Virus record (IMG/VR): IMGVR_UViG_2579779116_000018 | Coordinates: 1 to 37,371 of that record | Direction: 5' to 3' (one strand) | Origin: a virus | Taxonomy: Duplodnaviria > Heunggongvirae > Uroviricota > Caudoviricetes | DNA: 37,371 nt | Shown here: positions 578 through 30,743 of the stretch, one piece after another | How positions within the stretch are numbered: the stretch's first letter is position 1 | Layout: each line of letters starts with the position of its first letter | The notes under the pieces: generated by a model | Database searches by the model: none | What the model was told of the DNA's origin: nothing | The model's input: the letters and a program-made list of their open reading frames with translations, nothing else | Made by a program: the position numbers and the translations under genes

Positions 578-1624
578 ATGAAAATTAGGTTTGCGTGTGA
601 TATTGATTGGATTAAAAACAGTAGTCGTTCAATATCACCTAGTGTATTCGAATCTCGCATAATCGCTCTGTGTAAAGAAATTAACTATGAATTTCTTGGA
701 TTCTATGGTGAGTGGAAAGGGATTAAAACAAAACTTGTTCTAAAATGTAGTGAGGGGCATGTTTATAATTCTGCCACAATCGATGGATTTATTGGTTCTG
801 GGCGTCGTTGTCCTGAGTGCAAAAAGATTAATCTGGTAAAGAAAAAAATTCGTGCAATCTCTCCCGAAGAATATACGCGACGTCTTAATGATGTATGCCT
901 AGAAGATGGTTATACATTCATTGGATTCTATGGTGAGTGGAAAGGTAACGAGACAAAAGTAATCATGCGGTGTCCTCATGGTCATGAATATAACACAGCC
1001 ACTATAAACAGCTTTCTATGTGGTATTCGTTGTCCTGAATGTAAGCGAGACAAGCTAATAGCACGAAATACAATTTCTATTGAAGAGTATAACGAAAATA
1101 TAGAAAATATGTGTTCGTCTATCGGTTATGTTTATCATGGTATTGTTGGAGAATGGAAAGGGTATAACACTAAAATATCCCTTACTTGTTCGGCTGGTCA
1201 TACATTCAAGACGGCATCTATTAGAAGTTTTCTGTATAATGGTAGCCGTTGTCCTTGTTGTGCAAGTTACGGTTATAACGTGGCTAAAGCTGGTTATCTA
1301 TATGTACAGCACGTCACGGGCGAAGTTGAAGCCATTAAATTTGGAATCACCAACCGAAAACCGGAACAGCGAATGAGACAGCACATCAACCGTTCAAAGC
1401 TGAATCATGAACTTGTGTTCTCTATGAAATTTGAAGACGGGCAAAAGGCGCTGGATGTAGAAACGAGAATTAAGCAGATCTGGAAGGGGAAGACCGGATA
1501 TGTTTCAAGAGAGTTAATGGAAGATGGTTTTACAGAAACATTACCAGCCGAAATTATGAACGTTTTTTTAAAAGATGTTAAATCGATGTGCAATCTTGCT
1601 GTAATGAATATTAGCCTCGCCTAG
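578..1624 (+). CDS. protein with three tandem Zn-ribbon-like repeats and C-terminal T5orf172 (GIY-YIG-like) domain (348 aa)
   Basis: RBS AAGAGGAA before ATG. Three copies of about 50 aa unit F-x-G-E-W-K-G...T-K...C-x-x-G-H...R-C-P-x-C; C-terminal GYLYV...KFGIT.RKPEQRMRQH matches the T5orf172 signature from memory. Paralogous to 3405-4580 and 4735-5304. Confidence 0.75.
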   Translation: MKIRFACDIDWIKNSSRSISPSVFESRIIALCKEINYEFLGFYGEWKGIKTKLVLKCSEGHVYNSATIDGFIGSGRRCPECKKINLVKKKIRAISPEEYTRRLNDVCLEDGYTFIGFYGEWKGNETKVIMRCPHGHEYNTATINSFLCGIRCPECKRDKLIARNTISIEEYNENIENMCSSIGYVYHGIVGEWKGYNTKISLTCSAGHTFKTASIRSFLYNGSRCPCCASYGYNVAKAGYLYVQHVTGEVEAIKFGITNRKPEQRMRQHINRSKLNHELVFSMKFEDGQKALDVETRIKQIWKGKTGYVSRELMEDGFTETLPAEIMNVFLKDVKSMCNLAVMNISLA

Positions 1625-3404: not shown

Positions 3405-4580
3405 TTAGAGAGCGTTTAAGAGAGTATTAAAGTATTCATCCATTAAATCAGGATTGTTGTCATCAATACAGAAAAATTCCGGTTTATTGATGCCGTAGAA
3501 GTGAGTATGTAGCTTGAATGTATCGTCATCAAATACATCTTTCGGAGATACCCACATATTAGCCTCGTCCGGTTGATTGGTTAGGTAGTCATAAACCAGT
3601 TGCTGTAAGTGCGGCAACTCATCAATAGTCAGAGTTTCCGACCATCCATCCTTGAAATCTTTGTAGGGTGCTGCATGAGTCTTGAAGCGTTGTTTTACTT
3701 CATGCTCTAAATCGGCAGCTTTCCAACCATCCTCAAACTCATGAGTAAAGATTAAGCGGTGAGTGAAGTTGCTCTTTCTGGTTTGTTCTCTCATTCGTTC
3801 TTCTGGTTTTCGGGTAGTGATTCCAAATTTAATAAATTTGTCATCTAATAATTGAATGTAGAAACTAGCCTTACCCTGATAAGTCCGGTTAGACAGTTGC
3901 ACCAGTTGGTCTTTAATGCAAAGCGGACAAGTGAAAGAATCAGCACATCTTAAATGAGATTCCCATTCGTGGTTATGTGACTTGCAATAGGTTTTAAATT
4001 TAACATCCTTTAGGTGTGGGGTGTTTATGGTAAATCCTTTGAAGATGTAAGGTGTAGTCTCGCAACGTGCATTGATGATTGTCTCTTTGTCCTTAATAAC
4101 TTCATCAAAAGTCTTGCCACTTCTTACCCGTTGGGATTTTTCAGCCATACAGATTTTACAATCAAAATCAAAATCATCCTTGAGAGCATGTAATAGAGAT
4201 GGCGTCATGATTTGATTGTGTATAGGACACAAAACACGGGCTTTTGTCTTGTTGCGCCCTTTCCATTCTCCTTGCCATCCTAGAAACTTCTTTCCCTTCT
4301 CATTACAACGAGATTCCATTTTCAACCATACAGCCTTTTCAGTCTGGAATAACTCACCCCCGTTAGTATCTTCCAGTTTGCGTAATTTGTAGTCCTTATA
4401 TTCTTGTGTATCTAAATTGTAGATTCGAAAGTAAGTGTGATTACCCTTCCACGGTAGGATAAATCCACCAAATACGAAAGCAGGTTCCAGTTTAGCGATG
4501 ATTCGTTGTTGGTACTCTTCCGGCGATAAACCGCGAGTTTTCTTAACAAAAGGAATTTCGGCAGCGTAAGCAAGTTTCAT
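3405..4580 (-). CDS. Zn-ribbon-repeat / T5orf172 domain protein, paralog B (391 aa)
   Basis: Start moved from ORF-track 4691 to the internal ATG at 4578-4580, which has RBS AGAGGAAACTACT upstream and gives an N-terminus (MKLAYAAEIPFVKKTRGLSPEEY) matching the paralogs. WKG/C...CP.C repeats and C-terminal FYIQL...KFGITTRKPEERMREQ. Confidence 0.75.
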   Translation of the reverse strand: MKLAYAAEIPFVKKTRGLSPEEYQQRIIAKLEPAFVFGGFILPWKGNHTYFRIYNLDTQEYKDYKLRKLEDTNGGELFQTEKAVWLKMESRCNEKGKKFLGWQGEWKGRNKTKARVLCPIHNQIMTPSLLHALKDDFDFDCKICMAEKSQRVRSGKTFDEVIKDKETIINARCETTPYIFKGFTINTPHLKDVKFKTYCKSHNHEWESHLRCADSFTCPLCIKDQLVQLSNRTYQGKASFYIQLLDDKFIKFGITTRKPEERMREQTRKSNFTHRLIFTHEFEDGWKAADLEHEVKQRFKTHAAPYKDFKDGWSETLTIDELPHLQQLVYDYLTNQPDEANMWVSPKDVFDDDTFKLHTHFYGINKPEFFCIDDNNPDLMDEYFNTLLNAL

Positions 4581-4639
4581 AGTAGTTTCCTCTAAAATAA
4601 TAAGTTCACTACTATTTATTAGAGAAAATTGTCTTACTA

Positions 4640-4667
4640 TTGCATTCTCTATCTGAATGTGTATAAT
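4640..4667 (+). promoter_or_regulatory. putative sigma70 promoter for the 4735 gene
   Basis: TTGCAT (4640-4645), 16 bp spacer, TATAAT (4662-4667), in the divergent intergenic region 4581-4734. Confidence 0.4.
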
Positions 4668-4734
4668 ACGCGACCCTAAATCCCAAACCAACCATATTGA
4701 GGTTATGCCTATAAGTTAAAAAAGTGAGGTCTAT

Positions 4735-15185: not shown

Positions 15186-17540
15186 TTACATCTTACGACG
15201 CTGTGCGTCTTCTACCGCCTGAGCAACTAACTTAGCGTGACGTTTGATAGCATCCATAACCATCTTGTCTGAGCTATTAACATTGCCGTTAATGTTCAAA
15301 GGTGCGTTAACTTCAATCGGCTGAGAGTTACCACCACCTGATTTTTGAGCAGCAAGGAAGTCTTTCAAATCACCGTTAGTACGCTGATCAACTACTCGTT
15401 CACCCTTATCAAGCAACCATGTACCCTCACGAGGGATGTTATCAATACCATCATGAGCCATACCGCTAACGTTAGTAGACTTGATGTTTGCGATGCTCCC
15501 CATGTTCTGAGAAACAGCCAATGCAGCAGCAGCGATTTTTTGACCTGTGGTTACGTTGGTCGGATCGTTCCATGCTTCGGTAGCAGCCGTCCACATGTTC
15601 ACCGTCGCTTGTCCAATGGAGAATGCCTTATGAGCATTGAAAGCCATCTGCATAGCTTTAGTGTTTTCCTGCCCGAAGAGAGTCATTGCAGCAGCAAAAC
15701 CGCCATACATATCATCGGCTATTGACTGGCGAGCATCAGCATATTTCTTTTCAATTGCAGCCATCCGTTTTTGATGGTTTTCATTGAGTTTTTCTAATGC
15801 AGCCATCCGTTTAGCTGGATCATTAATACCATCAATATTGAGTTTTTCGGTCTTATAATCTTGTTCAGCTTCCGATTTCTCTTGATCGATTGCATTAAAT
15901 TTAGCAAACGGGTTATTTGAATCCTGATAGTCTAAGCTATTAGTCAATTGATTGGTTTTAAAACCATCCATTCCCTGTAACTGACTATCAATCTGAGAAT
16001 AGTTTTGCTCGGTATCATTCACACGACGCATATATTCTTCGTAGGAGATAGCTTTACCATCAAGTAACCGTTTATGGCTTTCTAGCTCGTTGTCCCTGAT
16101 TTGTTGCAAAACTGTTAAGGCATTCAGAGCATCAATCGGATCAGCACCCAACATCATTTTATAGATGTTTTCTGCGTTCTGATCTAACAGTTGCTGACGT
16201 TTAGCGGCTGCGTCTTGCTGAGAGATTAAGCCCATATCTAAAGCAGTGTCTAAATCTTTCAAGCTGGCTTCTAACTGCTTGTTTTGAGAAGCAATAGACG
16301 CGGCTGTCTGTCCTTGCAATTTAACATCAAGAGCATTCAGTCGCTTGATTGCATCCTCGCGTGCTTTCTGTGCTTTTTCTGCGGCTTCCTTAGCCTTTTT
16401 AGCTGCCTCTTCCGCTTTCTTCTTGGCTTCTTCTTGTTCTTTTTTCGATGGTCCGGTGACGCCTCCACCTTGACCCGTTGGGGTAAATCCGGTATCCGAT
16501 TTATTTCCAGTGATAGTAATTACCGGATCACCGTTTTTATCACGGGTAACGCCTTCACTATCCACCCAACGATCAGGATAATTTGGTTTATTGTTGAAGC
16601 TGGCTTGTCCACCCGCTAGACCAGTAGAACTATAACCATGCTTGTTAATAAAACCACCGTTAGCCATAGCCATATTCTGGCGAGCTTTTTCAAACCTTTC
16701 ATTAAAAGTCTTTAATGCGTTGAATAAAGCGGTCTTTTCCCAATCTTTATCAAACCAGTTGTAAAGATTATTCATCCCTTCAACAACTGGATTTAGTGCA
16801 TTTGCAGCCATACCCTTTAAGTTATCGGTAAGGGTATCCATATTTTTAGAGAATTTATTATATTCTTCGGCTGTGTCATTGGTGATTTTAACAGTTTGCT
16901 GATTAATGGCGTTTACAGCTTCCTGATAAGATCCGTATTTCTGCAATTCATCAGCCATATGACTTGAATCACTGGCTAACGATTCCATCATAAACTTAAC
17001 ATCAGCGATAGACGCACCAGCCTTGCGCATATCATAGAAGACCTTGATCGCCGCTTTCATCCCGCCTTGTGGATCGTTCATAAACTCGGCATAATCTTTA
17101 ATCTTCAAACCTACACTTTCTAGGTCGTCTTCAATACCGCCACCGTTACGCCATGCATCAGCCAGCTTATCTAAGGTGTCTTTGTTAATATCACCAAATT
17201 TCTCAACGGTTAAGCCAGTACCGGAGAATTGCTTCTCTAATTTCTGGAGTGTTTCGACGGTTAAACCAGTTGCTTTTGAAACTTCGCTGTATTCCTTTAC
17301 ATAATCACCGATGGCATTTGCAGCAGAAATAGCGCCAGCAGCCAAACCAACAAAACCACCAGCAGCCAAAGCAAGCGATCCACCAGTTCCGCGAAGGGTT
17401 CCACTTAAACTAGATAAACCACCAGACAAATCAAGATTCATTGCCCTTTCTGAAAGGTTATCAAGCATCTCTATCGCCTGATTGGTACTTCTCCTTAGAC
17501 CGTCATTATCTCCTTCTATTGTTACTATATGTCTTGTCAT
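15186..17540 (-). CDS. tail tape measure protein (784 aa)
   Basis: Long alpha-helical protein with Gly/Ala-rich N-terminal region and Lys/Glu/Ala coiled-coil segment, directly downstream of the G/T chaperone pair; RBS GGGGTAATTT. Confidence 0.85.
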   Translation of the reverse strand: MTRHIVTIEGDNDGLRRSTNQAIEMLDNLSERAMNLDLSGGLSSLSGTLRGTGGSLALAAGGFVGLAAGAISAANAIGDYVKEYSEVSKATGLTVETLQKLEKQFSGTGLTVEKFGDINKDTLDKLADAWRNGGGIEDDLESVGLKIKDYAEFMNDPQGGMKAAIKVFYDMRKAGASIADVKFMMESLASDSSHMADELQKYGSYQEAVNAINQQTVKITNDTAEEYNKFSKNMDTLTDNLKGMAANALNPVVEGMNNLYNWFDKDWEKTALFNALKTFNERFEKARQNMAMANGGFINKHGYSSTGLAGGQASFNNKPNYPDRWVDSEGVTRDKNGDPVITITGNKSDTGFTPTGQGGGVTGPSKKEQEEAKKKAEEAAKKAKEAAEKAQKAREDAIKRLNALDVKLQGQTAASIASQNKQLEASLKDLDTALDMGLISQQDAAAKRQQLLDQNAENIYKMMLGADPIDALNALTVLQQIRDNELESHKRLLDGKAISYEEYMRRVNDTEQNYSQIDSQLQGMDGFKTNQLTNSLDYQDSNNPFAKFNAIDQEKSEAEQDYKTEKLNIDGINDPAKRMAALEKLNENHQKRMAAIEKKYADARQSIADDMYGGFAAAMTLFGQENTKAMQMAFNAHKAFSIGQATVNMWTAATEAWNDPTNVTTGQKIAAAALAVSQNMGSIANIKSTNVSGMAHDGIDNIPREGTWLLDKGERVVDQRTNGDLKDFLAAQKSGGGNSQPIEVNAPLNINGNVNSSDKMVMDAIKRHAKLVAQAVEDAQRRKM

Positions 17541-17543
17541 AAA

Positions 17544-17918
17544 TTACCCCAATTGTCCGCTCTTGAGCTTTTGTAATAATGAAGCGTCGAAAAAACTATC
17601 AACCAAAGCAGCGTTACGTTCTTCCTCTTTCTTACGAGCAATTTCTTTTATTTCTTCTTGCGTTTTAAATTGCTTGTCGTCCTTAATCATTCGGAATTGG
17701 TTAACATTGATTTTATTCAACCATTCACGAGTCATGTTAGGAGATGTAACGTGCATGTAATACATCGACTGTGCATGTCGCGCATCTTGAAACAGGGGGC
17801 TTTGTGGTTCAAGATATGTATCGAATATATGCAACGCCCAAAATAGCGTAATTGGCATATTATCCATCTCATCTTTACTCAAGCCCCGACGCATCATTTG
17901 CCGAAAATAAAAATTCAA
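17544..17918 (-). CDS. tail assembly chaperone T-frame ORF (expected C-terminal part of a G-T fusion)
   Basis: ORF lies in the -1 frame relative to the upstream G-like ORF and overlaps its end. The ORF-track start is a TTG, not a credible independent start; the T frame is open from 17942. Confidence 0.5.
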   Translation of the reverse strand: MNFYFRQMMRRGLSKDEMDNMPITLFWALHIFDTYLEPQSPLFQDARHAQSMYYMHVTSPNMTREWLNKINVNQFRMIKDDKQFKTQEEIKEIARKKEEERNAALVDSFFDASLLQKLKSGQLG

Positions 17919-17926
17919 GAGCGGGT

Positions 17927-18235
17927 TTACTTTACCTCGTTTTCAATTACCGCCGCATCTTTCATCAATGATGCTTGAGCAACTAAGCCGATTAATTCGC
18001 TGCGGACGCTAGTATACAATGCCTTAACTTGTTCAATAGATTCAAATACTGGCTTACCGTCTTCATCTTCAATACAACGAAGAATAGAGCGTTCATCACG
18101 GTCTTTTTTATCAGTATTGAAAACATGTTCATTAAATTCTTGTACCGACATAGGGCGAGCATAGAACGTAAATCCTCCGAGGGTTAAAGATTCACGTTTC
18201 GGAGAAAGAGCTTTCAGCATTTCATTCAGATTCAT
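17927..18235 (-). CDS. tail assembly chaperone, gpG-like (102 aa)
   Basis: Small acidic protein immediately upstream of the T-frame ORF and tape measure gene, the conserved G/GT/TMP arrangement. Confidence 0.6.
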   Translation of the reverse strand: MNLNEMLKALSPKRESLTLGGFTFYARPMSVQEFNEHVFNTDKKDRDERSILRCIEDEDGKPVFESIEQVKALYTSVRSELIGLVAQASLMKDAAVIENEVK

Positions 18236-18280: not shown

Positions 18281-18787
18281 TTAAGAGATTTTCAAAGTCT
18301 GCTTAGTGCCAGTCTTCTTAATGTTATTGAGGAAAGCAGCCGGAGGATTGCTTAACCAATAGTAATGAAAACCGCTTTGCATACTGTTATAAGGAACAGT
18401 GACAGCAGCACCACCCAAATTAACGGTTATATTCCCCGCTCTACCGTTCTGGAGATATACAGCCATAGTAGGAGTACCGCCATTGAATTGACCAACGATA
18501 ACGCCAACCAGATGGCCTACGCCCACGTTTTCGGGGTTCTCCATAGATCCTTTACCGCGCATGTCAGTTACTGGATAGTTTGAAGCAGTTACACCCCAGT
18601 TATTACCCAATGAAGTAGACCATGCAGCAGTAGCAACAACCGTATCCATACCACGACCAGCCATTGCCGACATATTACGCGGAGCCGGAACTTTTAAAGC
18701 TGTTAATGCTTCTTTCATCCATCGCTTACCCGTCACTGATACAGCCGATGACCCGATCCAGCCGGGAACTTTAACGACATTTGCCAT
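18281..18787 (-). CDS. hypothetical structural protein (168 aa)
   Basis: Gly-rich protein between the tail tube candidate and the chaperones; RBS GGAG; function unknown. Confidence 0.55.
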   Translation of the reverse strand: MANVVKVPGWIGSSAVSVTGKRWMKEALTALKVPAPRNMSAMAGRGMDTVVATAAWSTSLGNNWGVTASNYPVTDMRGKGSMENPENVGVGHLVGVIVGQFNGGTPTMAVYLQNGRAGNITVNLGGAAVTVPYNSMQSGFHYYWLSNPPAAFLNNIKKTGTKQTLKIS

Positions 18788-18946: not shown

Positions 18947-19423
18947 TCAACCACCAGCGGTAAACACTTCCTGTTTGATCGGAGCACCATCAACAGCAAA
19001 GGTATATTCTTTAGTTACGACTTCTTCATCGCCACCCTGCATAGCCGCTTTAGAGATAAAGCCGTTGAAAGCGGTGCGAATACCAGTCTGCTTACCAGCA
19101 TCAACATAATATTCAATCTTAATCTGAATACGCGTGCCATCTTCGGCTGCCTTATCCAGTTTAGCGTGTACCGCATCACCTGGGATGTAGTTAACGGTCA
19201 GAGTCAGATCAGGAACGTTCAGTTTCCCTACCAGTTTACGGTTATACTGAGAAGAGAAGGATTTAACTTCTACAGTACCGCGTTCGATAGCAGTTTCAGG
19301 GAAGCCAGCGCACTCTTTAATTTCTTCGTAACCGGAGTGATCGAGAGTGGTATTAGTGGTATCCGCGTGATAGAACAGACTTACCAGACCACCAGTAAAA
19401 ATATCTTTAAATTGCTGAGACAT
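18947..19423 (-). CDS. putative major tail tube protein (158 aa)
   Basis: Size and position upstream of G/T chaperones; strong RBS AAGGGGTAATT; followed by the same terminator module as the capsid gene, consistent with a highly expressed major structural protein. Family not confirmed. Confidence 0.6.
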   Translation of the reverse strand: MSQQFKDIFTGGLVSLFYHADTTNTTLDHSGYEEIKECAGFPETAIERGTVEVKSFSSQYNRKLVGKLNVPDLTLTVNYIPGDAVHAKLDKAAEDGTRIQIKIEYYVDAGKQTGIRTAFNGFISKAAMQGGDEEVVTKEYTFAVDGAPIKQEVFTAGG

Positions 19424-19478: not shown

Positions 19479-22400
19479 TTATTTAGTTGCTTTGAGTTCG
19501 GCTAATTCAGCTTTCGTTTCGGCAAGTTCTTTAGCCATAGCATCAAACTTAGCGCTCATTTCCTGAAACGCCTTAATTAAAAGAGCGTTGACAGCAGAGT
19601 TAGAAATTGTTAAGATCTCTTCTGGCTTATCAGGATCGCCGATCTTAGAAGTTGTTACTGCTTCCGGCAATTCTTTTTCAAGATCCTGAGCAATAATACC
19701 AACTTCATGAGCGATAACAGTGCGGTCCGTCAAAGACTTAACCTTATCGTAGGTGTACACAGTCAAGCGATTAACTTTATCGGTGGCATTCTCCTTATAC
19801 TCTTCCTTGTTGATTTTCAGACGAGCATCAGAACGAATATAAACATCGTTAAAGTTACCATTGCGTCCAGCTTGGAAATCACCGGAGGCGTTAAAGTCAA
19901 AGTTTGTGGTATGGATATGAAGACGTGCCATAGCATTAGTAATAACACCACTAGGAACGTGTACACCCATTGCCGCGATGTGGTCTAAACCCCATTTGGT
20001 CGCTTTCCATACGTTATATGCGGAAGTTTGAGCATTAGGACAATCAACCAATAAGCCAGCAGCGCGAGTTTTCCATTCTGACCATGCACCACCTTGTACT
20101 TCTCCGCGAATCAAACCACGGTCGCTACCGTTTGCATACCCACGTTCTAAGCGAATCATACCAGTCTGGAAAACATGGTCAAATTCTCCGCTGTTATAGT
20201 TTCGAATGCGCATTTGACCTGAGCCATCACCCCAGATAACACCACGGTTAGTACCATTAGCATCCTTAAACCAGAGTTCTTTATTACCATCTCTATACAT
20301 CTGAATTTGGTTATTGGTACGCAAAACATTAGTAACCACCAAATCACCATTTATCCGAGCACGACCACCCGTTTCTAAACTACCAGCAACTCTGAATTGA
20401 ATCGAACCGTTAGAATCACGCTGAGAATATAGATGATAGCTTGTTTCGTCAGCAAGTTCCCACACCTGAGCGCGAGTTTCATTACCCCAAGATTTAACAA
20501 AGAATACAGATTTCGATCCTTCGTCGTTACGTTCCCAATACAGTCTGCTTCCAAGATGTGTGGTTGCGTTCACTTCAACTCGTTTACGTTCGTTGTTGAG
20601 ACGCATTAAATGATTACCAGCATCGCTACCACCTAGTGTAACGTTACCATTGGCTAGGCTATAGATGAACGGCCTAAAGGTATTCCACGGACCCATAGTG
20701 TCGCCTGATTTTGTGCTCATCAGATAAACGTTACTACCGTCATTTCGCCACCATGAACCATAGTTACCATATACAGTACGGAAGCCATCAGCATATAAAG
20801 AAATGAATTGACCGTTAGTATAAACTCGCTTCATATTGCCAGTTTGAAGTTCTATCTGGCCGTCAATATGTTGACGAATAGAACTACCGCCTACATCACT
20901 ATACCATTCAAAAACGTTAGTATCAGCATTGGCATAACCGATCCATCCTTGACGAGTAATATCTCCAGTACGATTATCTTGAAACGCAATATGGTTGGAT
21001 TGACCAGCAGGTCGGCGTAGTGTAATGGCATTAGATCCGCCATTTAACAGCATACGACCAGAAATAATATTACCTTTATGAGTCCCAGCAATAGAGCTAC
21101 TAGATTCAACGGTTAGAATATCCTGAGCATCAGTGGCACCAGTAGCCAGACGATAGCTGGCACCTTGAACAGTCTCATGCCAGATCATTTCATTATAGTT
21201 ACTACGGAATTTACGAATATATTTCCGTCCAGTACCTCTATCATTGCTTAGATGAACAATGTCATAGCTGTTTTGTGTATTGTCGTCAAAACTCAACACA
21301 CCACGTTTATTTTCGGTGTTGAAAAGAGTTACGTTGCGACCACCGATAACACCAACGGAAGGTTTAATTAACGTGGCTTCCGGCGTATCATAAACCGTCA
21401 AACTTACATAAACAGATTTCCCATATTCGACAATAACGTTATCGGTATAACGCTGATATTTCACGTAGATATCATAGTTATCACCGGAAGTATTGACAGC
21501 AAATACCTCAAAATCTTTGTTTGTATTTCTACGGTATGCAATTACGTTAAGACCTTTAGGTCTATCGTTACCACTACGCAGAAGAATTTCTACTACGTCA
21601 ACCTGATCATATGCCGTAACGCTGTAACCATTACCACCATGAATACGGAAAAACACACTACGCCCGTTTTGTGGAATTGTTGCGGTTGCCAATTTGAAAT
21701 ATGCAGATACGTTTTCGCTAGAATTAGGAACAGACATAACGACGTTTTTAACAAACATCTTATCAACTTCTGCTTTAGTGTATGCACCAATCTCGCCAGG
21801 AGTCGGCTTATCACCTTCGTGATACATCTTATAGCTAAAGTTCTTCTGTCCTTCTCTATCAAAACCATAGGTTTCAACACGAGATCCACCAGACGCATAA
21901 CGGAAAGTAAATCCGCGACCGTGCGCTTTACCGGCAGAATGAGGAACGTTAAGGGTCAGATCCATGAGTCCATCTTGTCCATTGGTACGGAAAGCACCAA
22001 AGTAGTTAAGATCTCGCGCTGTCTGATCTTCCAGATAGTTAGCTGTCTTGCTTAACAAATACCCGCCATGCTTAGTATTGGTATTCTTCTTGATGTAAGC
22101 AGCATCGGCACTACCTTCAATAGAATCAATTCGCTGGTTAGCTGCGGCAATTGCGGCATCAGTAGAAGATTTATTCTGGTCTACCTTGTTGTTAATAGCG
22201 GTATGGTTGCTGTTAACAGTGCCAGTAAGGTTACTGATTTTAGTATCAGCATCTTTCTTGTTGTCGGAAACGACCTTTTCAATCGCTGTTTTGTTAGCTG
22301 CAACCGTGCTAGTTAAGCTAGAAATTTTGTTATCTGCATCGGTTTTATTTGCAGTAACAGTTTTAGTTAAGTTGCTAACGTTGGTGTTAGTGGTATTAAC

Positions 22401-22928
22401 TTTGTTGTTAATCGCGGTGTTATTGTCATTAACCGTCGTGGTTAAAGCTGCGATTTTATTGTCCGCATCTCGTTTATTATTTGCTACAGTAGTTTCTATA
22501 GCTGATTTGTTAGATGCAACTGTCCCTGTAAGGTTATTGATCTTAGTATCAGCATCGGTTTTATTTGCCGTGACTGTCTGGGTTAAGTTACTAACCGTGG
22601 TGTTAGTAGCATCAATGCGCTTATTGGTCGCTGTATCTTTCGTGGTAATAGTCTGATTCAGTTCAGCTTTAGCACTAGCCAGATTATTAGCGGCTTCTTG
22701 TTTGTTGGAAGCAATAACACGGTCAGTGCTAGTTTTGTTATTGTCTACTTTCGTATTCAGTTCAGCGTGTTTTTCTGGAGAAACACTAATTTGGACTACG
22801 TTATTATTTTTGTCTTTGGTGTAAATCACATGATCCGCCAACTGTAAGGCGATTTCACCCTGTGATAATTGTTCCGGCGTTGGTTTTTTACCAGCCGTTT
22901 GTGTGCGTTTAAATTGGATTGATTGCAT
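19479..22928 (-). CDS. fibre protein with C-terminal intramolecular chaperone (peptidase S74) domain (1149 aa)
   Basis: C-terminus SDARLKINKEEY...VIAHEVGIIAQDLEKELPEAV...LLIKAFQEM matches the auto-cleaving chaperone domain of T5 L-shaped fibre / endosialidase type; N-terminal third is Thr/Asn-rich tandem repeats; KPTPGEIGAYTKAEVD motif. Confidence 0.85.
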   Translation of the reverse strand: MQSIQFKRTQTAGKKPTPEQLSQGEIALQLADHVIYTKDKNNNVVQISVSPEKHAELNTKVDNNKTSTDRVIASNKQEAANNLASAKAELNQTITTKDTATNKRIDATNTTVSNLTQTVTANKTDADTKINNLTGTVASNKSAIETTVANNKRDADNKIAALTTTVNDNNTAINNKVNTTNTNVSNLTKTVTANKTDADNKISSLTSTVAANKTAIEKVVSDNKKDADTKISNLTGTVNSNHTAINNKVDQNKSSTDAAIAAANQRIDSIEGSADAAYIKKNTNTKHGGYLLSKTANYLEDQTARDLNYFGAFRTNGQDGLMDLTLNVPHSAGKAHGRGFTFRYASGGSRVETYGFDREGQKNFSYKMYHEGDKPTPGEIGAYTKAEVDKMFVKNVVMSVPNSSENVSAYFKLATATIPQNGRSVFFRIHGGNGYSVTAYDQVDVVEILLRSGNDRPKGLNVIAYRRNTNKDFEVFAVNTSGDNYDIYVKYQRYTDNVIVEYGKSVYVSLTVYDTPEATLIKPSVGVIGGRNVTLFNTENKRGVLSFDDNTQNSYDIVHLSNDRGTGRKYIRKFRSNYNEMIWHETVQGASYRLATGATDAQDILTVESSSSIAGTHKGNIISGRMLLNGGSNAITLRRPAGQSNHIAFQDNRTGDITRQGWIGYANADTNVFEWYSDVGGSSIRQHIDGQIELQTGNMKRVYTNGQFISLYADGFRTVYGNYGSWWRNDGSNVYLMSTKSGDTMGPWNTFRPFIYSLANGNVTLGGSDAGNHLMRLNNERKRVEVNATTHLGSRLYWERNDEGSKSVFFVKSWGNETRAQVWELADETSYHLYSQRDSNGSIQFRVAGSLETGGRARINGDLVVTNVLRTNNQIQMYRDGNKELWFKDANGTNRGVIWGDGSGQMRIRNYNSGEFDHVFQTGMIRLERGYANGSDRGLIRGEVQGGAWSEWKTRAAGLLVDCPNAQTSAYNVWKATKWGLDHIAAMGVHVPSGVITNAMARLHIHTTNFDFNASGDFQAGRNGNFNDVYIRSDARLKINKEEYKENATDKVNRLTVYTYDKVKSLTDRTVIAHEVGIIAQDLEKELPEAVTTSKIGDPDKPEEILTISNSAVNALLIKAFQEMSAKFDAMAKELAETKAELAELKATK
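22070..22720 (-). repeat. in-frame tandem coding repeats within the fibre gene
   Basis: Protein-level repeats of the type TVTANKTDADTKI(N/S)NLTGTV..N.TAIN(N)KV recur several times; nucleotide repeats visible. Approximate bounds. Confidence 0.6.
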
Positions 22929-28838: not shown

Positions 28839-30743
28839 TTAGAACGATGTTACCCAGCTACGGCCTCTATTTGGGCGTCTGGCGATGTTTTGACGTTGTG
28901 GTCGTGTGATTGGCTTAGTTTCTTCGATTTGCTCGTCAGATTGCGATTTAGGAGCTTCTACAGGTTCTTCTGGTTCACGGTTCAAACTATCTTTGATGGC
29001 TTCGAGTTTTTCCCATGACATTTTATTGAGTACATGACGAGAAGCAGCATAGGAATAAGCCAGGCAGTCGAGAGCCTCGTTTCGTTGCTGACCAACTTTT
29101 ACCCAACGTGTGGTATTACCCTGCCGTTTCAACTGTTCAGATAACAATTGCTCGCAATAGTCATCAGGAACGTCACCAATCTGGAAGACCGTATGAGGAT
29201 CGCTGTCTCTCAAGTTCCGGTTAATCATTTCACGGATCATCGTCTTAAGGTTGTTTACGCCCAGAATTTTGAGAGTAAAACCGCCCGTTCTTGTGTCCTT
29301 AGCCGGAAGGATTGGAGCATCAGCATTACTTGCGCCTTTAATGGCGCATAGGTTTTGCCACCTAGTGCAAAAACGGTAGATCACGTTTGTAGCTCGTCCG
29401 TTCGATGAGTCCACGAAAGCAGATAACATCGGGATTCGTTCACCGGATCGGGTATAGAATTTCGCTTTCAGGAAGTTATAAAGCTGGTCATATGCTGGCG
29501 ATTCGTGGCGTTCGCAGTTCACATCATAGAATGATCGGTGATCAACTACGCATATCCCCTTACGAGAGATACCCAGCAAGGTAGATTCCAGACGGTCTTT
29601 TTGCTGGTCAACTCCACCTACCAGAGCCAGTACATCATCAGGAATATTGTCTAGGCTAATATCAGTTTTCAGCGTTTCCAGTTCGTCGGCTGTGCGGTCT
29701 TCGTTAAGATCATCGAAGGTTTCGCCTAAGACAGTGTTATAGAACGTTGCCAGGGACATATTCGCGTAGCTATCAGCAAAGTCCACCACACACGCACGGA
29801 TAGAACTAAACGGAGACATAAGGCGGTTAGCATGAAAACCGATTACTTCCGCATTTGGTTCGGTGGCGACCCATTCTCCCTGAGCAACAGCACGGAGGCG
29901 ATCCCCTTCGGTCCAATCGGTTTCACATTCAGGGCAACGGTAAACGGCTGTATCTGGGTTGGGTAATGATTTACCGTTAATCGTATGCCAATCGAAATGT
30001 ACGTTACTCCATTCCATTACGTGCTTGTGTCCGCAATGCTGGCAAACGACATGATATTTTCTCTTATCCGAGAGTTCCCATTGTTGGTTAATCGCCCCAT
30101 CACGAGCGGTTGGAGTGGAAGCAATTACGATCCTTGCATCTTCCCCGAAAGTGGTTGCGCGTTGTTCCGCTAGCTGGATCGGGTTCCCTTCGTCTGACTC
30201 ATCAGCCGCATCAACTTCATCAAGAATAATCAAAGGGAGTGTTTTACCGCGAAGATGTGACGGACTATTCAACGACATGAAATACATAAACGATCCGTTA
30301 CGAAGCTGAATAATCGATGAGTTGTTAACGGCATTGCGATCTGATTTGTCGGTGATCATCGCTTTTAATTCTGGCGTTGCCTCTAATACTGGCTTCACCT
30401 TACCAGCGATCCAAGAATTTAGTTCCCTAACGTTACTTTGCAAGACCCCAATATTAGTAGGGTTACTCGCGATCCGATGGAAGATAATTCCGTTAAGAAT
30501 CATGGTCTTACCCAACTGCGCCGAACATTTAAACACAATTTTTCTACGGTCTTCGGTGATCGCGTCCATCATTCCACGTTGGAAGGGATGCAATTTAATT
30601 AGCGATCCGGCTTTAACACCATCGGTTGCAACTACATTAGCCTCTACCCATTCGCTAGGTTTCATGGCTTTAGGTGGGCGAATTGCAGCAGAGATATTTC
30701 TGAGAATCTTTTTTAATTTTGCCTTATTAGAAATCAGTTTCAT
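28839..30743 (-). CDS. terminase large subunit, lambda gpA-like (634 aa)
   Basis: HPFQRGMMDAI, Walker A-like KCSAQLGKTM, Asp-rich LIILDEVDAADE, Cys cluster CQHCGH...CPEC; first gene of the minus-strand late operon. Confidence 0.9.
   Translation of the reverse strand: MKLISNKAKLKKILRNISAAIRPPKAMKPSEWVEANVVATDGVKAGSLIKLHPFQRGMMDAITEDRRKIVFKCSAQLGKTMILNGIIFHRIASNPTNIGVLQSNVRELNSWIAGKVKPVLEATPELKAMITDKSDRNAVNNSSIIQLRNGSFMYFMSLNSPSHLRGKTLPLIILDEVDAADESDEGNPIQLAEQRATTFGEDARIVIASTPTARDGAINQQWELSDKRKYHVVCQHCGHKHVMEWSNVHFDWHTINGKSLPNPDTAVYRCPECETDWTEGDRLRAVAQGEWVATEPNAEVIGFHANRLMSPFSSIRACVVDFADSYANMSLATFYNTVLGETFDDLNEDRTADELETLKTDISLDNIPDDVLALVGGVDQQKDRLESTLLGISRKGICVVDHRSFYDVNCERHESPAYDQLYNFLKAKFYTRSGERIPMLSAFVDSSNGRATNVIYRFCTRWQNLCAIKGASNADAPILPAKDTRTGGFTLKILGVNNLKTMIREMINRNLRDSDPHTVFQIGDVPDDYCEQLLSEQLKRQGNTTRWVKVGQQRNEALDCLAYSYAASRHVLNKMSWEKLEAIKDSLNREPEEPVEAPKSQSDEQIEETKPITRPQRQNIARRPNRGRSWVTSF

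What the first reader, a model, noticed from the sequence alone, without database searches (positions are those of the whole stretch)
17916..17945. G/T chaperone junction lacks a canonical slippery heptamer; candidate -1 shift at A-AAG placed directly on the G stop codon
The T frame is -1 relative to G and is open for only 14 nt before the G stop (minus strand TGA AAA CGA GGT AAA G|TAA). No X-XXY-YYZ heptamer exists in that window. The only shift-prone element is the last sense codon AAG (Lys) preceded by A, so the P-site tRNA-Lys can re-pair with AAA in the -1 frame while the A site holds the UAA stop; an SD-like GAGG sits just upstream. The predicted fusion junction is ...AAVIENEVK-VNPLLNFYFRQMM.... 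This would be a compact, non-canonical variant of the conserved G/GT frameshift.
Basis: partly seen in the sequence, partly recalled or inferred. Interest (0 to 1): 0.55.

Follow-up and report, generated by a model that had tools for sequence, protein, structure and literature searches.

The report
Non-canonical tail-chaperone frameshift site (GUA-AAG-stop)
An E. coli prophage most likely makes its tail-assembly fusion protein by a ribosome slipping back one base on the sequence G-GUA-AAG just before a stop codon; this kind of slip site is already known, and the case is well conserved but untested.

Summary
On the minus strand, chaperone gene G (18235-17927) ends GAG GTA AAG TAA. No X_XXY_YYZ heptamer lies in that overlap.

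Comparison of 75 related loci supports a real -1 frameshift on the last sense codon:
- Every relative keeps an in-frame A_AAG or A_AAA at G residues about 98-104.
- The 5' codon varies: GUA in the window's E. coli prophage clade and L109, GAA, UUA, or the canonical A_AAA_AAG/A in distant relatives.
- In 68 of 75 loci the G stop follows directly.
- The 30 nt between the G stop and the first T-frame ATG evolve as coding sequence in the T frame, and no start codon is conserved upstream of them.

The GAGG lies 1 nt from A_AAG, whereas -1 stimulation needs 9-14 nt, and relatives lose it. The adjacent stop is common but dispensable, so slippage dependent on the stop is unproven. No downstream RNA structure was found.

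This is an unannotated member of the known A_AAG / NNA_AAG class of -1 sites, used for the known G/GT strategy. Interest is modest. No experiment has tested it.

The parts
17927..18235 (-). Gene G, tail assembly chaperone (102 aa). This is the zero frame and the product of normal termination.
   Evidence: ORF. Hits phrog_344 'tail assembly chaperone' at E=1.8e-7. Hits Pfam Phage_TAC_13 at E=1.6e-4, below the curated cut-off; 10 of 17 family members hit the same model. It lies between the tail tube and the tape measure.
17930..17936 (-). Proposed shift site G_GUA_AAG, comprising the hexamer GUA_AAG and the core tetramer A_AAG at 17933-17930. These are the last two sense codons of G.
   Evidence: Read directly. 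It is invariant in 45 loci of the window's clade, including L032/L033 where the preceding codon changes from GAG to TCG. Homologous positions in other clades carry A_AAA_AAG/A, G_GAA_AAG, A_GAA_AAG, A_GTA_AAG or T_TTA_AAG.
17927..17929 (-). G stop codon TAA, directly after the shift codon. It is a possible 'shifty stop' enhancer.
   Evidence: Adjacent in 68 of 75 loci, as TAA, TAG (L019) or TGA (L098). Not adjacent in L034, L109 and DCP80, and one codon away in L062, L107, L108 and L110.
17544..17933 (-). T frame (-1) from the re-paired AAA codon to its stop, encoding the 128-aa C-terminal extension of the G-T fusion (230 aa in total).
   Evidence: Translation. Aligns with relatives from the junction onward. 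3 of 17 family fusions hit Pfam Phage_tail_T below threshold. The segment 17926-17897, upstream of any ATG, shows 8 synonymous against 4 non-synonymous changes in this frame.
17935..17938 (-). SD-like GAGG. It is present but not supported as a frameshift stimulator.
   Evidence: Spacing is 1 nt, against the documented 9-14 nt for -1 shifts. It is lost in L032/L033 and absent from other clades.
17943..17945 (-). TGA that closes the T frame upstream and sets the 5' limit of the window in which a shift can occur.
15186..17540 (-). Tape measure protein gene, immediately downstream of T.
   Evidence: Hits phrog_13674 at E=1.4e-70. ORF.
18947..19423 (-). Tail tube protein gene, upstream of G.
   Evidence: Hits phrog_158 'major tail protein' at E=3.2e-21. 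RefSeq names it 'phage tail tube protein' in near-identical prophages.

Best explanation
A small fraction of ribosomes translating chaperone gene G shift -1 on its last sense codon. E. coli's single tRNA-Lys (anticodon mnm5s2UUU), paired with AAG at 17932-17930, re-pairs with the overlapping AAA at 17933-17931. Translation then continues with GUA-AAC-CCG in the T frame. The product is a 230-aa G-T fusion, ...ENEVK-VNPLLNFYFRQMM..., made alongside the abundant 102-aa G.

The site belongs to the known A_AAG tetramer / NNA_AAG hexamer class, here GUA_AAG. It is not a two-tRNA X_XXY_YYZ heptamer. After the slip, tRNA-Val on GUA could re-pair with GGU at only two of three positions.

The directly adjacent stop probably helps, either by pausing the ribosome or simply by keeping the G-only tail at zero length. 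It is not essential. By analogy with lambda gpG/gpGT, the G part would bind the tape measure and the T part would recruit tail tube protein.

What is shown: the frames, the motif, its conservation, and coding selection on T upstream of any start codon. What is inferred: that the shift happens, its efficiency, which ribosomal site the tRNA slips in, and the protein functions.
For: 1. The gene order tube - (adhesin) - G - T(-1) - tape measure carries chaperone signatures.
2. All 75 related loci keep an in-frame A_AAG or A_AAA at G residues about 98-104, while the encoded dipeptide changes (V-K, E-K, K-K, L-K). 19 loci have the canonical A_AAA_AAG/A, and DCP80 has T_TTA_AAG at the homologous spot.
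3. GGTAAAGTAAACCCGCT is the most conserved DNA block in the G-T region across 30 distinct clade sequences.
4. The 30 nt between the G stop and the first T-frame ATG show 8 synonymous and 4 non-synonymous changes in the T frame, against 1/10 and 1/9 in the other two frames. Variable columns fall 8:2:2 on codon positions 3:1:2. The TTG at 17918 is CTG or TTA in relatives, and DCP80 has no Met where the window has ATG-ATG.
5. In-frame A_AAG is avoided elsewhere in the window (38 observed, 73 +/- 7 expected). Other slippery motifs open only 12-38 codons in the -1 frame, against 128 at G.
6. The host is E. coli: the element is in 50 of 5,426 complete genomes. In E. coli, A_AAG is the most shift-prone tetramer (PMC4066793). 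NNA_AAG sites are documented in B. subtilis cdd (A_CGA_AAG) and IS1222 (G_CGA_AAG) (PMC5009743).
Against: There is no experimental evidence of any kind, such as a junction peptide or a reporter assay.

In E. coli reporters, A_AAG without a stimulator was barely above background (about 0.15%) and reached 5.6% only with the IS3 pseudoknot. I found no stimulator here:
- The downstream fold is no better than shuffled sequence (z = +0.7).
- No structure is conserved across the clade.
- No Rfam frameshift element matches.
- The GAGG is at the wrong spacing.

The efficiency may therefore be low. ATG-ATG in the T frame is conserved within the window's clade, so some independent initiation cannot be excluded. 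RefSeq annotates G and T as separate genes. The Pfam and PDB chaperone matches are all below curated thresholds.
Confidence: 0.78

Rival explanations
1. T is a separate protein, made by independent initiation at the ATG-ATG (17897-17892) or a later ATG, or by re-initiation after termination at the G stop. No frameshift occurs.
For: RefSeq/PGAP annotates G and T as two separate hypothetical proteins in near-identical prophages. ATG-ATG is conserved within the window's clade. A Met occurs near this position in several other clades.
Against: The 10 codons upstream of the ATG are under T-frame purifying selection: 8 synonymous and 4 non-synonymous changes, against 1/10 and 1/9 in the other frames. 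They align with relatives back to the shift-site Lys. The 20 nt before the ATG (TGAATTTTTATTTTCGGCAA) contain no SD-like sequence. DCP80 has Leu-Ile-Leu at that position. PGAP picks different T starts in different strains. This rival does not explain why A_AAR is conserved at the end of G in every clade.
Confidence: 0.1
2. The shift is a stop-dependent, one-tRNA 'shifty stop' event. It occurs only when AAG is in the P site and the slowly decoded UAA is in the A site, so the adjacent stop is the essential stimulator. This is the reader's specific mechanism, and it is a sub-model of the best explanation.
For: The stop is adjacent in 68 of 75 loci, across clades with tape-measure identity down to about 30%. 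It persists as TAA, TAG and TGA. 'Shifty stops' are a documented principle (PMC3082878). One-tRNA P-site slippage of tRNA-Lys needs no downstream structure (PMC6771820), which would explain why none is found here.
Against: L034 (G_GTA_AAG AAA ...), L109 (A_GTA_AAG, stop 11 codons later) and DCP80 (stop 10 codons after the site) lack an adjacent stop. L062, L107, L108 and L110 have a sense codon in between. The documented natural shifty stops I could read about are +1 events such as CCC_UGA. Adjacency could equally reflect selection for a minimal G-specific tail. Adjacency is largely inherited, so the 68 of 75 are not independent events.
Confidence: 0.3
3. The shift occurs four codons upstream, on the other in-frame tetramer A_AAC (GAA AAC, 17942-17939), giving ...VIEN-RGKVNPLL...
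For: A_AAC lies inside the 13-nt overlap and is formally a Z_ZZN tetramer.
Against: A_AAC is not among the six tetramers that were shift-prone in E. coli. It is destroyed in L095 and L096 (AAC to AGC) and absent in L032-L034, while G_GTA_AAG is retained.
Confidence: 0.03
4. The G-T fusion arises from transcriptional slippage by RNA polymerase rather than from ribosomal slippage.
For: Some relatives (L078, L083) have an A10 run at the junction with T in the +1 frame, where transcriptional slippage is plausible.
Against: The window's overlap has no homopolymer run longer than A4 (GAAAAC) or A3. That is too short for polymerase slippage according to established knowledge of runs of about 9 or more A/T. 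This rests on my own knowledge and was not tested.
Confidence: 0.02
5. T is a decaying remnant and no fusion protein is needed.
For: Nothing positive. The only point is that no expression data exist.
Against: The T frame stays open for 96-159 codons and aligns in sequence across clades with tape-measure identity down to about 30%.
Confidence: 0.02

Closest known systems
Phage lambda gpG/gpGT -1 programmed frameshift (G_GGA_AAG), and the conserved tail assembly chaperone frameshift of long-tailed phages (Levin 1993 and Xu 2004, as summarised in PMC5009743)
   Same: Two overlapping ORFs sit between the tail tube and tape measure genes. T is in the -1 frame. The shift lies at the very 3' end of G on an ...A_AAG codon read by tRNA-Lys. 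No strong stimulatory structure is evident. The window's heptamer differs from lambda's by one base (G_GUA_AAG against G_GGA_AAG).
   Different: The P-site codon cannot re-pair fully (GUA to GGU), so the site is not X_XXY_YYZ. The G stop follows the shift codon directly. Sequence similarity to the lambda G and T families is only sub-threshold. A Gp38-like adhesin gene is inserted between tube and G.
A_AAG tetramer / NNA_AAG hexanucleotide -1 sites: B. subtilis cdd A_CGA_AAG, IS1222 G_CGA_AAG, and the IS3-context study of all NNA_AAG (Licznar 2003)
   Same: The core event is the same: tRNA-Lys re-pairs from AAG to AAA, and a 5' NNA codon supplies the A. Efficiency is reported to depend on the wobble properties of the tRNA that reads NNA (PMC5009743). 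A_AAG is the best tetramer in E. coli.
   Different: Those sites have stimulators, either an upstream SD or a downstream pseudoknot or hairpin. None is detectable here. I could not read the measured value for GUA_AAG because Licznar 2003 is not held.
'Shifty stop' frameshifting (Weiss 1987; CCC_UGA in pheL, antizyme, and Listeria and SPP1 phage tail genes)
   Same: The shift-prone codon is directly followed by a stop. A slow A-site stop gives the P-site tRNA time to re-pair (PMC3082878).
   Different: The documented natural cases I could read about are +1 shifts, whereas this one would be -1. The stop is dispensable in several relatives.
E. coli dnaX and IS3/IS911 A_AAA_AAG -1 sites
   Same: The distant relatives of this chaperone use exactly A_AAA_AAG or A_AAA_AAA. 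The same tRNA-Lys is involved.
   Different: dnaX and the IS elements use an SD 9-14 nt upstream and a 3' hairpin or pseudoknot. The window has a degenerate 5' half and no such stimulators.

Membership tests
Tail assembly chaperone G/GT frameshift module (lambda-like) | Two consecutive ORFs located between the major tail (tube) gene and the tape measure gene | tested here: met
   The order is tube 18947-19423, G 17927-18235, T frame to 17544, tape measure 15186-17540. One extra Gp38-like gene lies between tube and G.
Tail assembly chaperone G/GT frameshift module (lambda-like) | The second ORF overlaps the 3' end of the first in the -1 frame and lacks its own conserved start and RBS | tested here: met
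   The frame is -1 with a 13-nt overlap. No start codon is conserved upstream of the T-frame coding region, and no SD is present.
Tail assembly chaperone G/GT frameshift module (lambda-like) | Canonical X_XXY_YYZ slippery heptamer in the overlap | tested here: not met
   The window's overlap has none. Relatives do have A_AAA_AAG/A and T_TTA_AAG. According to PMC10885494, most annotated chaperone overlaps also lack the canonical motif, so this feature is typical rather than strictly defining.
Tail assembly chaperone G/GT frameshift module (lambda-like) | Sequence or fold membership of G in a chaperone family and of T in the gpT family | tested here: inconclusive
   phrog_344 at E=1.8e-7. Pfam Phage_TAC_13 at 22.4 bits against a cut-off of 28.8, matched by 10 of 17 relatives. 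Phage_tail_T matched by 3 of 17, all below threshold. The PDB profile search gave only 2ob9_A 'Tail assembly chaperone' at E=0.37. No structure was predicted.
Tail assembly chaperone G/GT frameshift module (lambda-like) | A G-T fusion protein is actually produced at a low ratio to G and is needed for tail assembly | not testable with these tools
   This needs proteomics or genetics.
A_AAG tetramer / NNA_AAG hexamer -1 frameshift sites | In-frame A_AAG (NNA_AAG) positioned where the -1 frame is open | tested here: met
   GUA_AAG is at 17935-17930, in frame with G, and the -1 frame is open from 17942.
A_AAG tetramer / NNA_AAG hexamer -1 frameshift sites | The host decodes AAA and AAG with a single tRNA-Lys (mnm5s2UUU) | tested here: met
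   The host is E. coli: the prophage is in 50 of 5,426 complete genomes. [quoted passage not shown]
A_AAG tetramer / NNA_AAG hexamer -1 frameshift sites | Evolutionary conservation of the nucleotide motif beyond what the protein sequence requires | tested here: met
   A_AAR is kept in 75 of 75 loci while the dipeptide varies (V-K, E-K, K-K, L-K).
A_AAG tetramer / NNA_AAG hexamer -1 frameshift sites | A stimulator (SD 9-14 nt upstream, or a 3' hairpin or pseudoknot) that raises efficiency above background | tested here: not met
   GAGG is 1 nt upstream. The fold z-score is +0.7. The alignment fold is -4.5 kcal/mol with no covariation support. Rfam gives nothing.
'Shifty stop' sites | A re-pairable P-site codon immediately followed by a stop, with the stop required for shifting | tested here: inconclusive
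   Adjacency holds in the window and in 68 of 75 loci. It is absent or offset in 7 loci from about six lineages. Whether the stop is required cannot be tested computationally.

The most novel reading that the evidence does not exclude
In this prophage family the zero-frame stop codon directly after A_AAG is the frameshift stimulator, replacing the RNA structure or SD used elsewhere. The G:GT ratio would then be set by competition between release factor on UAA and slippage of tRNA-Lys followed by Val-tRNA reading GUA. That would make it a natural -1 'shifty stop' whose output tracks host termination capacity. The family would also provide a natural allelic series (A_AAA, G_GUA, G_GAA, A_GAA, U_UUA; stop at 0, +1, +4 or +10 codons) for measuring the contributions of P-site re-pairing and of the stop.
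Probability: 0.25. Interest if true: 0.5.

Novelty: new member of a known kind. Interest (0 to 1): 0.3.

Why it matters
In practice, this prophage family occurs in about 1% of complete E. coli genomes. RefSeq annotates G and T there as two unrelated hypothetical proteins with inconsistent T starts. The correct product is most likely a joined G-T chaperone, so the finding fixes an annotation and gives gene callers a concrete non-heptamer example.

For the mechanism, the family offers a compact natural series of shift-site variants at one homologous position in a host where every reagent exists. The series runs from a canonical heptamer, to heptamers with a degenerate 5' half, to the bare tetramer, with and without an adjacent stop. 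It could be used to measure how much P-site re-pairing and a flanking stop contribute to -1 slippage when no RNA structure is present.

It does not reveal a new recoding principle.

Tried and rejected
- **Close DNA relatives among deposited phages:** none (megablast). tblastn found only Escherichia phage DCP80.
- **Word-indexed protein search with the fusion protein:** no hits.
- **Genome-contig scan:** one locus only, L089.
- **Metagenome scan with the 17-sequence alignment:** It worked with a 6-sequence alignment.
- **Downstream stimulatory structure:** rejected. Folds of 57 and 90 nt are no better than shuffles. The alignment fold has no covariation support.
- **Rfam frameshift elements:** only sub-threshold chance hits (RNA-OUT, HOTAIR_2, sR35).
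- **SD-like GAGG as stimulator:** rejected on spacing and on lack of conservation.
- **A_AAC as the shift site:** rejected.
- **Literature search for the strings GGUAAAG / GUA_AAG:** returned only microRNA and primer papers.
- **Licznar et al. 2003,** the primary NNA_AAG study: not held under its DOI or PMC id. I do not know the measured shiftiness of GUA_AAG.
- **My first -1 frame script** misread L078 and L083, where T is in the +1 frame. It also gave a spurious 'stop +22' for L030, corrected.
- **Structure prediction and the exhaustive HMM search:** not run, because they would not bear on the shift site.

Full report
**1. The observation**

On the minus strand the window carries a siphovirus-type tail module:
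- a tail tube gene (18947-19423; phrog_158, E=3e-21);
- a Gp38-like adhesin gene (18281-18787);
- a 102-codon ORF G (18235-17927; phrog_344 'tail assembly chaperone', E=1.8e-7; Pfam Phage_TAC_13, sub-threshold);
- an ORF in another frame, T;
- the tape measure gene (17540-15186; phrog_13674, E=1e-70).

G ends ATT GAA AAC GAG GTA AAG TAA, with the stop at 17929-17927. The T frame is -1 relative to G. It is closed by TGA at 17945-17943, then reads AAA CGA GGT AAA GTA AAC CCG... for 128 codons after the junction, ending 3 nt before the tape-measure ATG.

It contains no X_XXY_YYZ heptamer. It holds two Z_ZZN tetramers in the G frame:
- A_AAG, the last sense codon.

**2. Is it more than chance?**

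Within the window's own long ORFs, in-frame A_AAG is avoided: 38 observed against 72.9 +/- 7.3 expected from codon shuffling. The chance of finding one in four codon slots is about 0.014. G is the only one of 30 ORFs that ends in A_AAG plus a stop. Other in-frame slippery motifs in the window open only 12-38 codons in the -1 frame, against 128 at G.

**3. Relatives**

No deposited phage is close at the DNA level. tblastn found only Escherichia phage DCP80, at 35% identity. Scans of IMG/VR, genome contigs and metagenome contigs yielded relatives that allowed 75 junctions to be analysed. The element itself is an E. coli prophage, present in 50 of 5,426 complete genomes at 80-99% identity. RefSeq calls G and T separate 'hypothetical proteins', with different T starts in different strains.

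**4. What the junctions show**

Every locus has an in-frame A_AAG or A_AAA at G residues about 98-104. In a 17-sequence alignment of the fusions this falls within four columns after an invariant Glu.

| Motif | Position of G stop | Loci |
|---|---|---|
| G_GTA_AAG | adjacent (TAA 42, TAG 1, TGA 1) | 44 |
| G_GTA_AAG | +4 codons (TAA mutated to AAA) | 1 (L034) |
| A_GTA_AAG | +11 codons | 1 (L109) |
| G_GAA_AAG | adjacent | 5 |
| G_GAA_AAG | +1 codon | 3 |
| A_GAA_AAG | +1 codon | 1 (L110) |
| T_TTA_AAG | +10 codons | 1 (DCP80) |
| A_AAA_AAG | adjacent (TAA) | 12 |
| A_AAA_AAA | adjacent (TAA) | 7 |

The last two rows are distant relatives whose tape measure is 30-43% identical to the window's.

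Further points:
- The dipeptide encoded at the site varies (V-K, E-K, K-K, L-K), but the nucleotide motif A_AAR is always kept.
- In L032/L033 the codon before GTA changes from GAG to TCG. This removes the GAGG and keeps G_GTA_AAG.
- In L095 and L096, AAC becomes AGC. This removes the alternative A_AAC tetramer.
- Within the window's clade (30 distinct sequences), GGTAAAGTAAACCCGCT is the most conserved DNA block of the whole G-T region.

**5. Is T translated through the junction?**

The 30 nt between the G stop and the first T-frame ATG (17926-17897) show 8 synonymous and 4 non-synonymous codon changes in the T frame, against 1/10 and 1/9 in the other two frames. Variable columns fall 8:2:2 on codon positions 3:1:2. 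The TTG at 17918 is CTG or TTA in relatives. DCP80 has Leu-Ile-Leu where the window has Met-Met. The 20 nt before the ATG-ATG contain no SD-like sequence. The T frame is therefore read upstream of any usable start, which requires entry from G.

**6. Stimulators**

- The downstream 57 and 90 nt fold no better than shuffled sequence (z = +0.6 to +0.7).
- An eight-sequence alignment fold gives -4.5 kcal/mol with no covariation support.
- Rfam has no match to any frameshift element.
- The GAGG ends 1 nt before A_AAG. The documented spacing is about 3 nt for +1 shifts and 9-14 nt for -1 shifts (PMC5009743), and the GAGG is not conserved. It is not supported as a stimulator.

**7. Mechanism**

According to the recoding literature I could read:
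- Z_ZZN tetramers are the minimal -1 sites. A_AAG is by far the best of them in E. coli, giving 5.6% with the IS3 pseudoknot but about 0.15% without a stimulator (PMC4066793).
- NNA_AAG hexamers are used naturally (cdd A_CGA_AAG, IS1222 G_CGA_AAG). Their efficiency depends on the tRNA that reads NNA (PMC5009743, citing Licznar 2003).
- A slow stop in the A site together with a re-pairable P-site tRNA is the definition of a 'shifty stop' (PMC3082878).
- One-tRNA slippage of P-site tRNA-Lys needs no downstream structure (PMC6771820).

The best-supported reading is that tRNA-Lys re-pairs from AAG to AAA on the hexamer GUA_AAG, giving ...ENEVK-VNPLL... Sequence alone cannot decide between them, and both give the same protein. 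The stop is adjacent in 68 of 75 loci. It is missing or offset in seven loci from about six lineages, so it may help but cannot be essential.

The P-site codon re-pairs imperfectly: GUA to GGU is 2 of 3 positions, and in L109 and L110 even the first base is lost. This favours the tetramer/hexamer class over a degenerate two-tRNA heptamer.

**8. Comparison with known systems and novelty**

Functionally this is the lambda G/GT strategy (PMC5009743). The window's heptamer differs from lambda's G_GGA_AAG by one base. Family membership at the sequence level is only weakly supported:
- Phage_TAC_13 is matched by 10 of 17 members and Phage_tail_T by 3 of 17, all below the curated cut-offs.
- The PDB profile search gives only 2ob9_A at E=0.37.

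Non-canonical motifs are reported to be the majority among annotated chaperone frameshifts (PMC10885494), where the mean distance from slippery site to stop is 26 nt. The case is therefore an unannotated, well-conserved new member of known kinds: G/GT recoding, an A_AAG/NNA_AAG site, and possibly a shifty stop. It is not a new mechanism.

**9. Limits**

- There is no expression evidence.
- The efficiency is unknown and could be low, because no stimulator was found.
- The measured behaviour of GUA_AAG in Licznar 2003 could not be read.
- Many of the 75 loci are near-duplicates, with only 8 distinct 44-nt contexts for the window's motif. The effective number of independent lineages is about ten.

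Noticed in passing
L078 3604-3638 and L083 3592-3632: In these two relatives the T ORF is in the +1 frame, not -1. G ends ACT GAA AAA AAA AAT AAG AAG TGA, with an A10 run inside the overlap. This suggests transcriptional slippage or a -2/+1 shift in the same chaperone family.
   Followed up: partly
L064-L082, the 10-12 nt after the G stop (e.g. L065 3599-3610): In the distant clade, A_AAA_AAG_TAA is directly followed by GAGGTGAT or GGGGTGAT. TAAGAGGTGAT is close to a perfect Shine-Dalgarno sequence, but it also encodes the conserved T-frame K-V-R-G-D. Its role is unknown.
   Followed up: no
window 18281-18787 (-): A Gp38-like tail fibre adhesin gene (Pfam Gp38_N, E=4e-15; phrog_1121, E=1e-34) sits between the tail tube gene and chaperone G. 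A 1149-aa fibre gene lies just upstream at 19479-22928. This is an unusual position inside a siphovirus-type tube-G-T-tape measure block.
   Followed up: no
whole window, 30 long ORFs: In-frame A_AAG tetramers are strongly under-represented: 38 observed against 72.9 +/- 7.3 expected from codon shuffling. This is consistent with selection against accidental -1 slippage in an E. coli-adapted genome.
   Followed up: partly
window 30708-30714 (-), 4290-4296 (-), 835-841 (+), 17295-17301 (-): Other in-frame slippery motifs occur inside long ORFs. They are A_AAA_AAG near the 5' end of ORF 28839-30743, G_GGA_AAG in ORF 3405-4691, a second G_GTA_AAG in ORF 578-1624, and T_GTA_AAG in the tape measure gene. 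Their -1 frames run only 12-38 codons.
   Followed up: partly
L001 (PQ671644.1 7777-20366): Escherichia phage DCP80 is filed as Straboviridae/Tevenvirinae (141 kb). It nevertheless carries this siphovirus-like tube-G-T-tape measure module, with every gene annotated 'hypothetical protein'. The record may be chimeric or misclassified.
   Followed up: no
L030 2938-3102: The N-terminal half of G is replaced by unrelated sequence, while the C-terminal 40 residues and the GAG GTA AAG TAA junction are intact. This could be a recombination mosaic or a damaged copy.
   Followed up: no
L089 (JBEBQJ010000175.1): A contig binned as a Sphingobacterium MAG carries the G_GAA_AAG_TAA variant. Its junction sequence is identical to that of the metagenome contigs L103-L106, so the host assignment by binning looks doubtful.
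   Followed up: no
L019 3298-3315: A 3-nt insertion at the junction gives GAG GTA AAG TAG TAA ACC. The G stop becomes TAG and the T frame gains one Val. Both frames and the G_GTA_AAG motif are preserved.
   Followed up: no
L090 3066-3757 and L091 1563-2251: RefSeq/PGAP annotates T as an independent CDS. It starts at the second ATG of ATG-ATG in strain 39EVA and 36 nt further downstream in strain ETEC4090. No joined frameshift product is annotated in either.
   Followed up: yes
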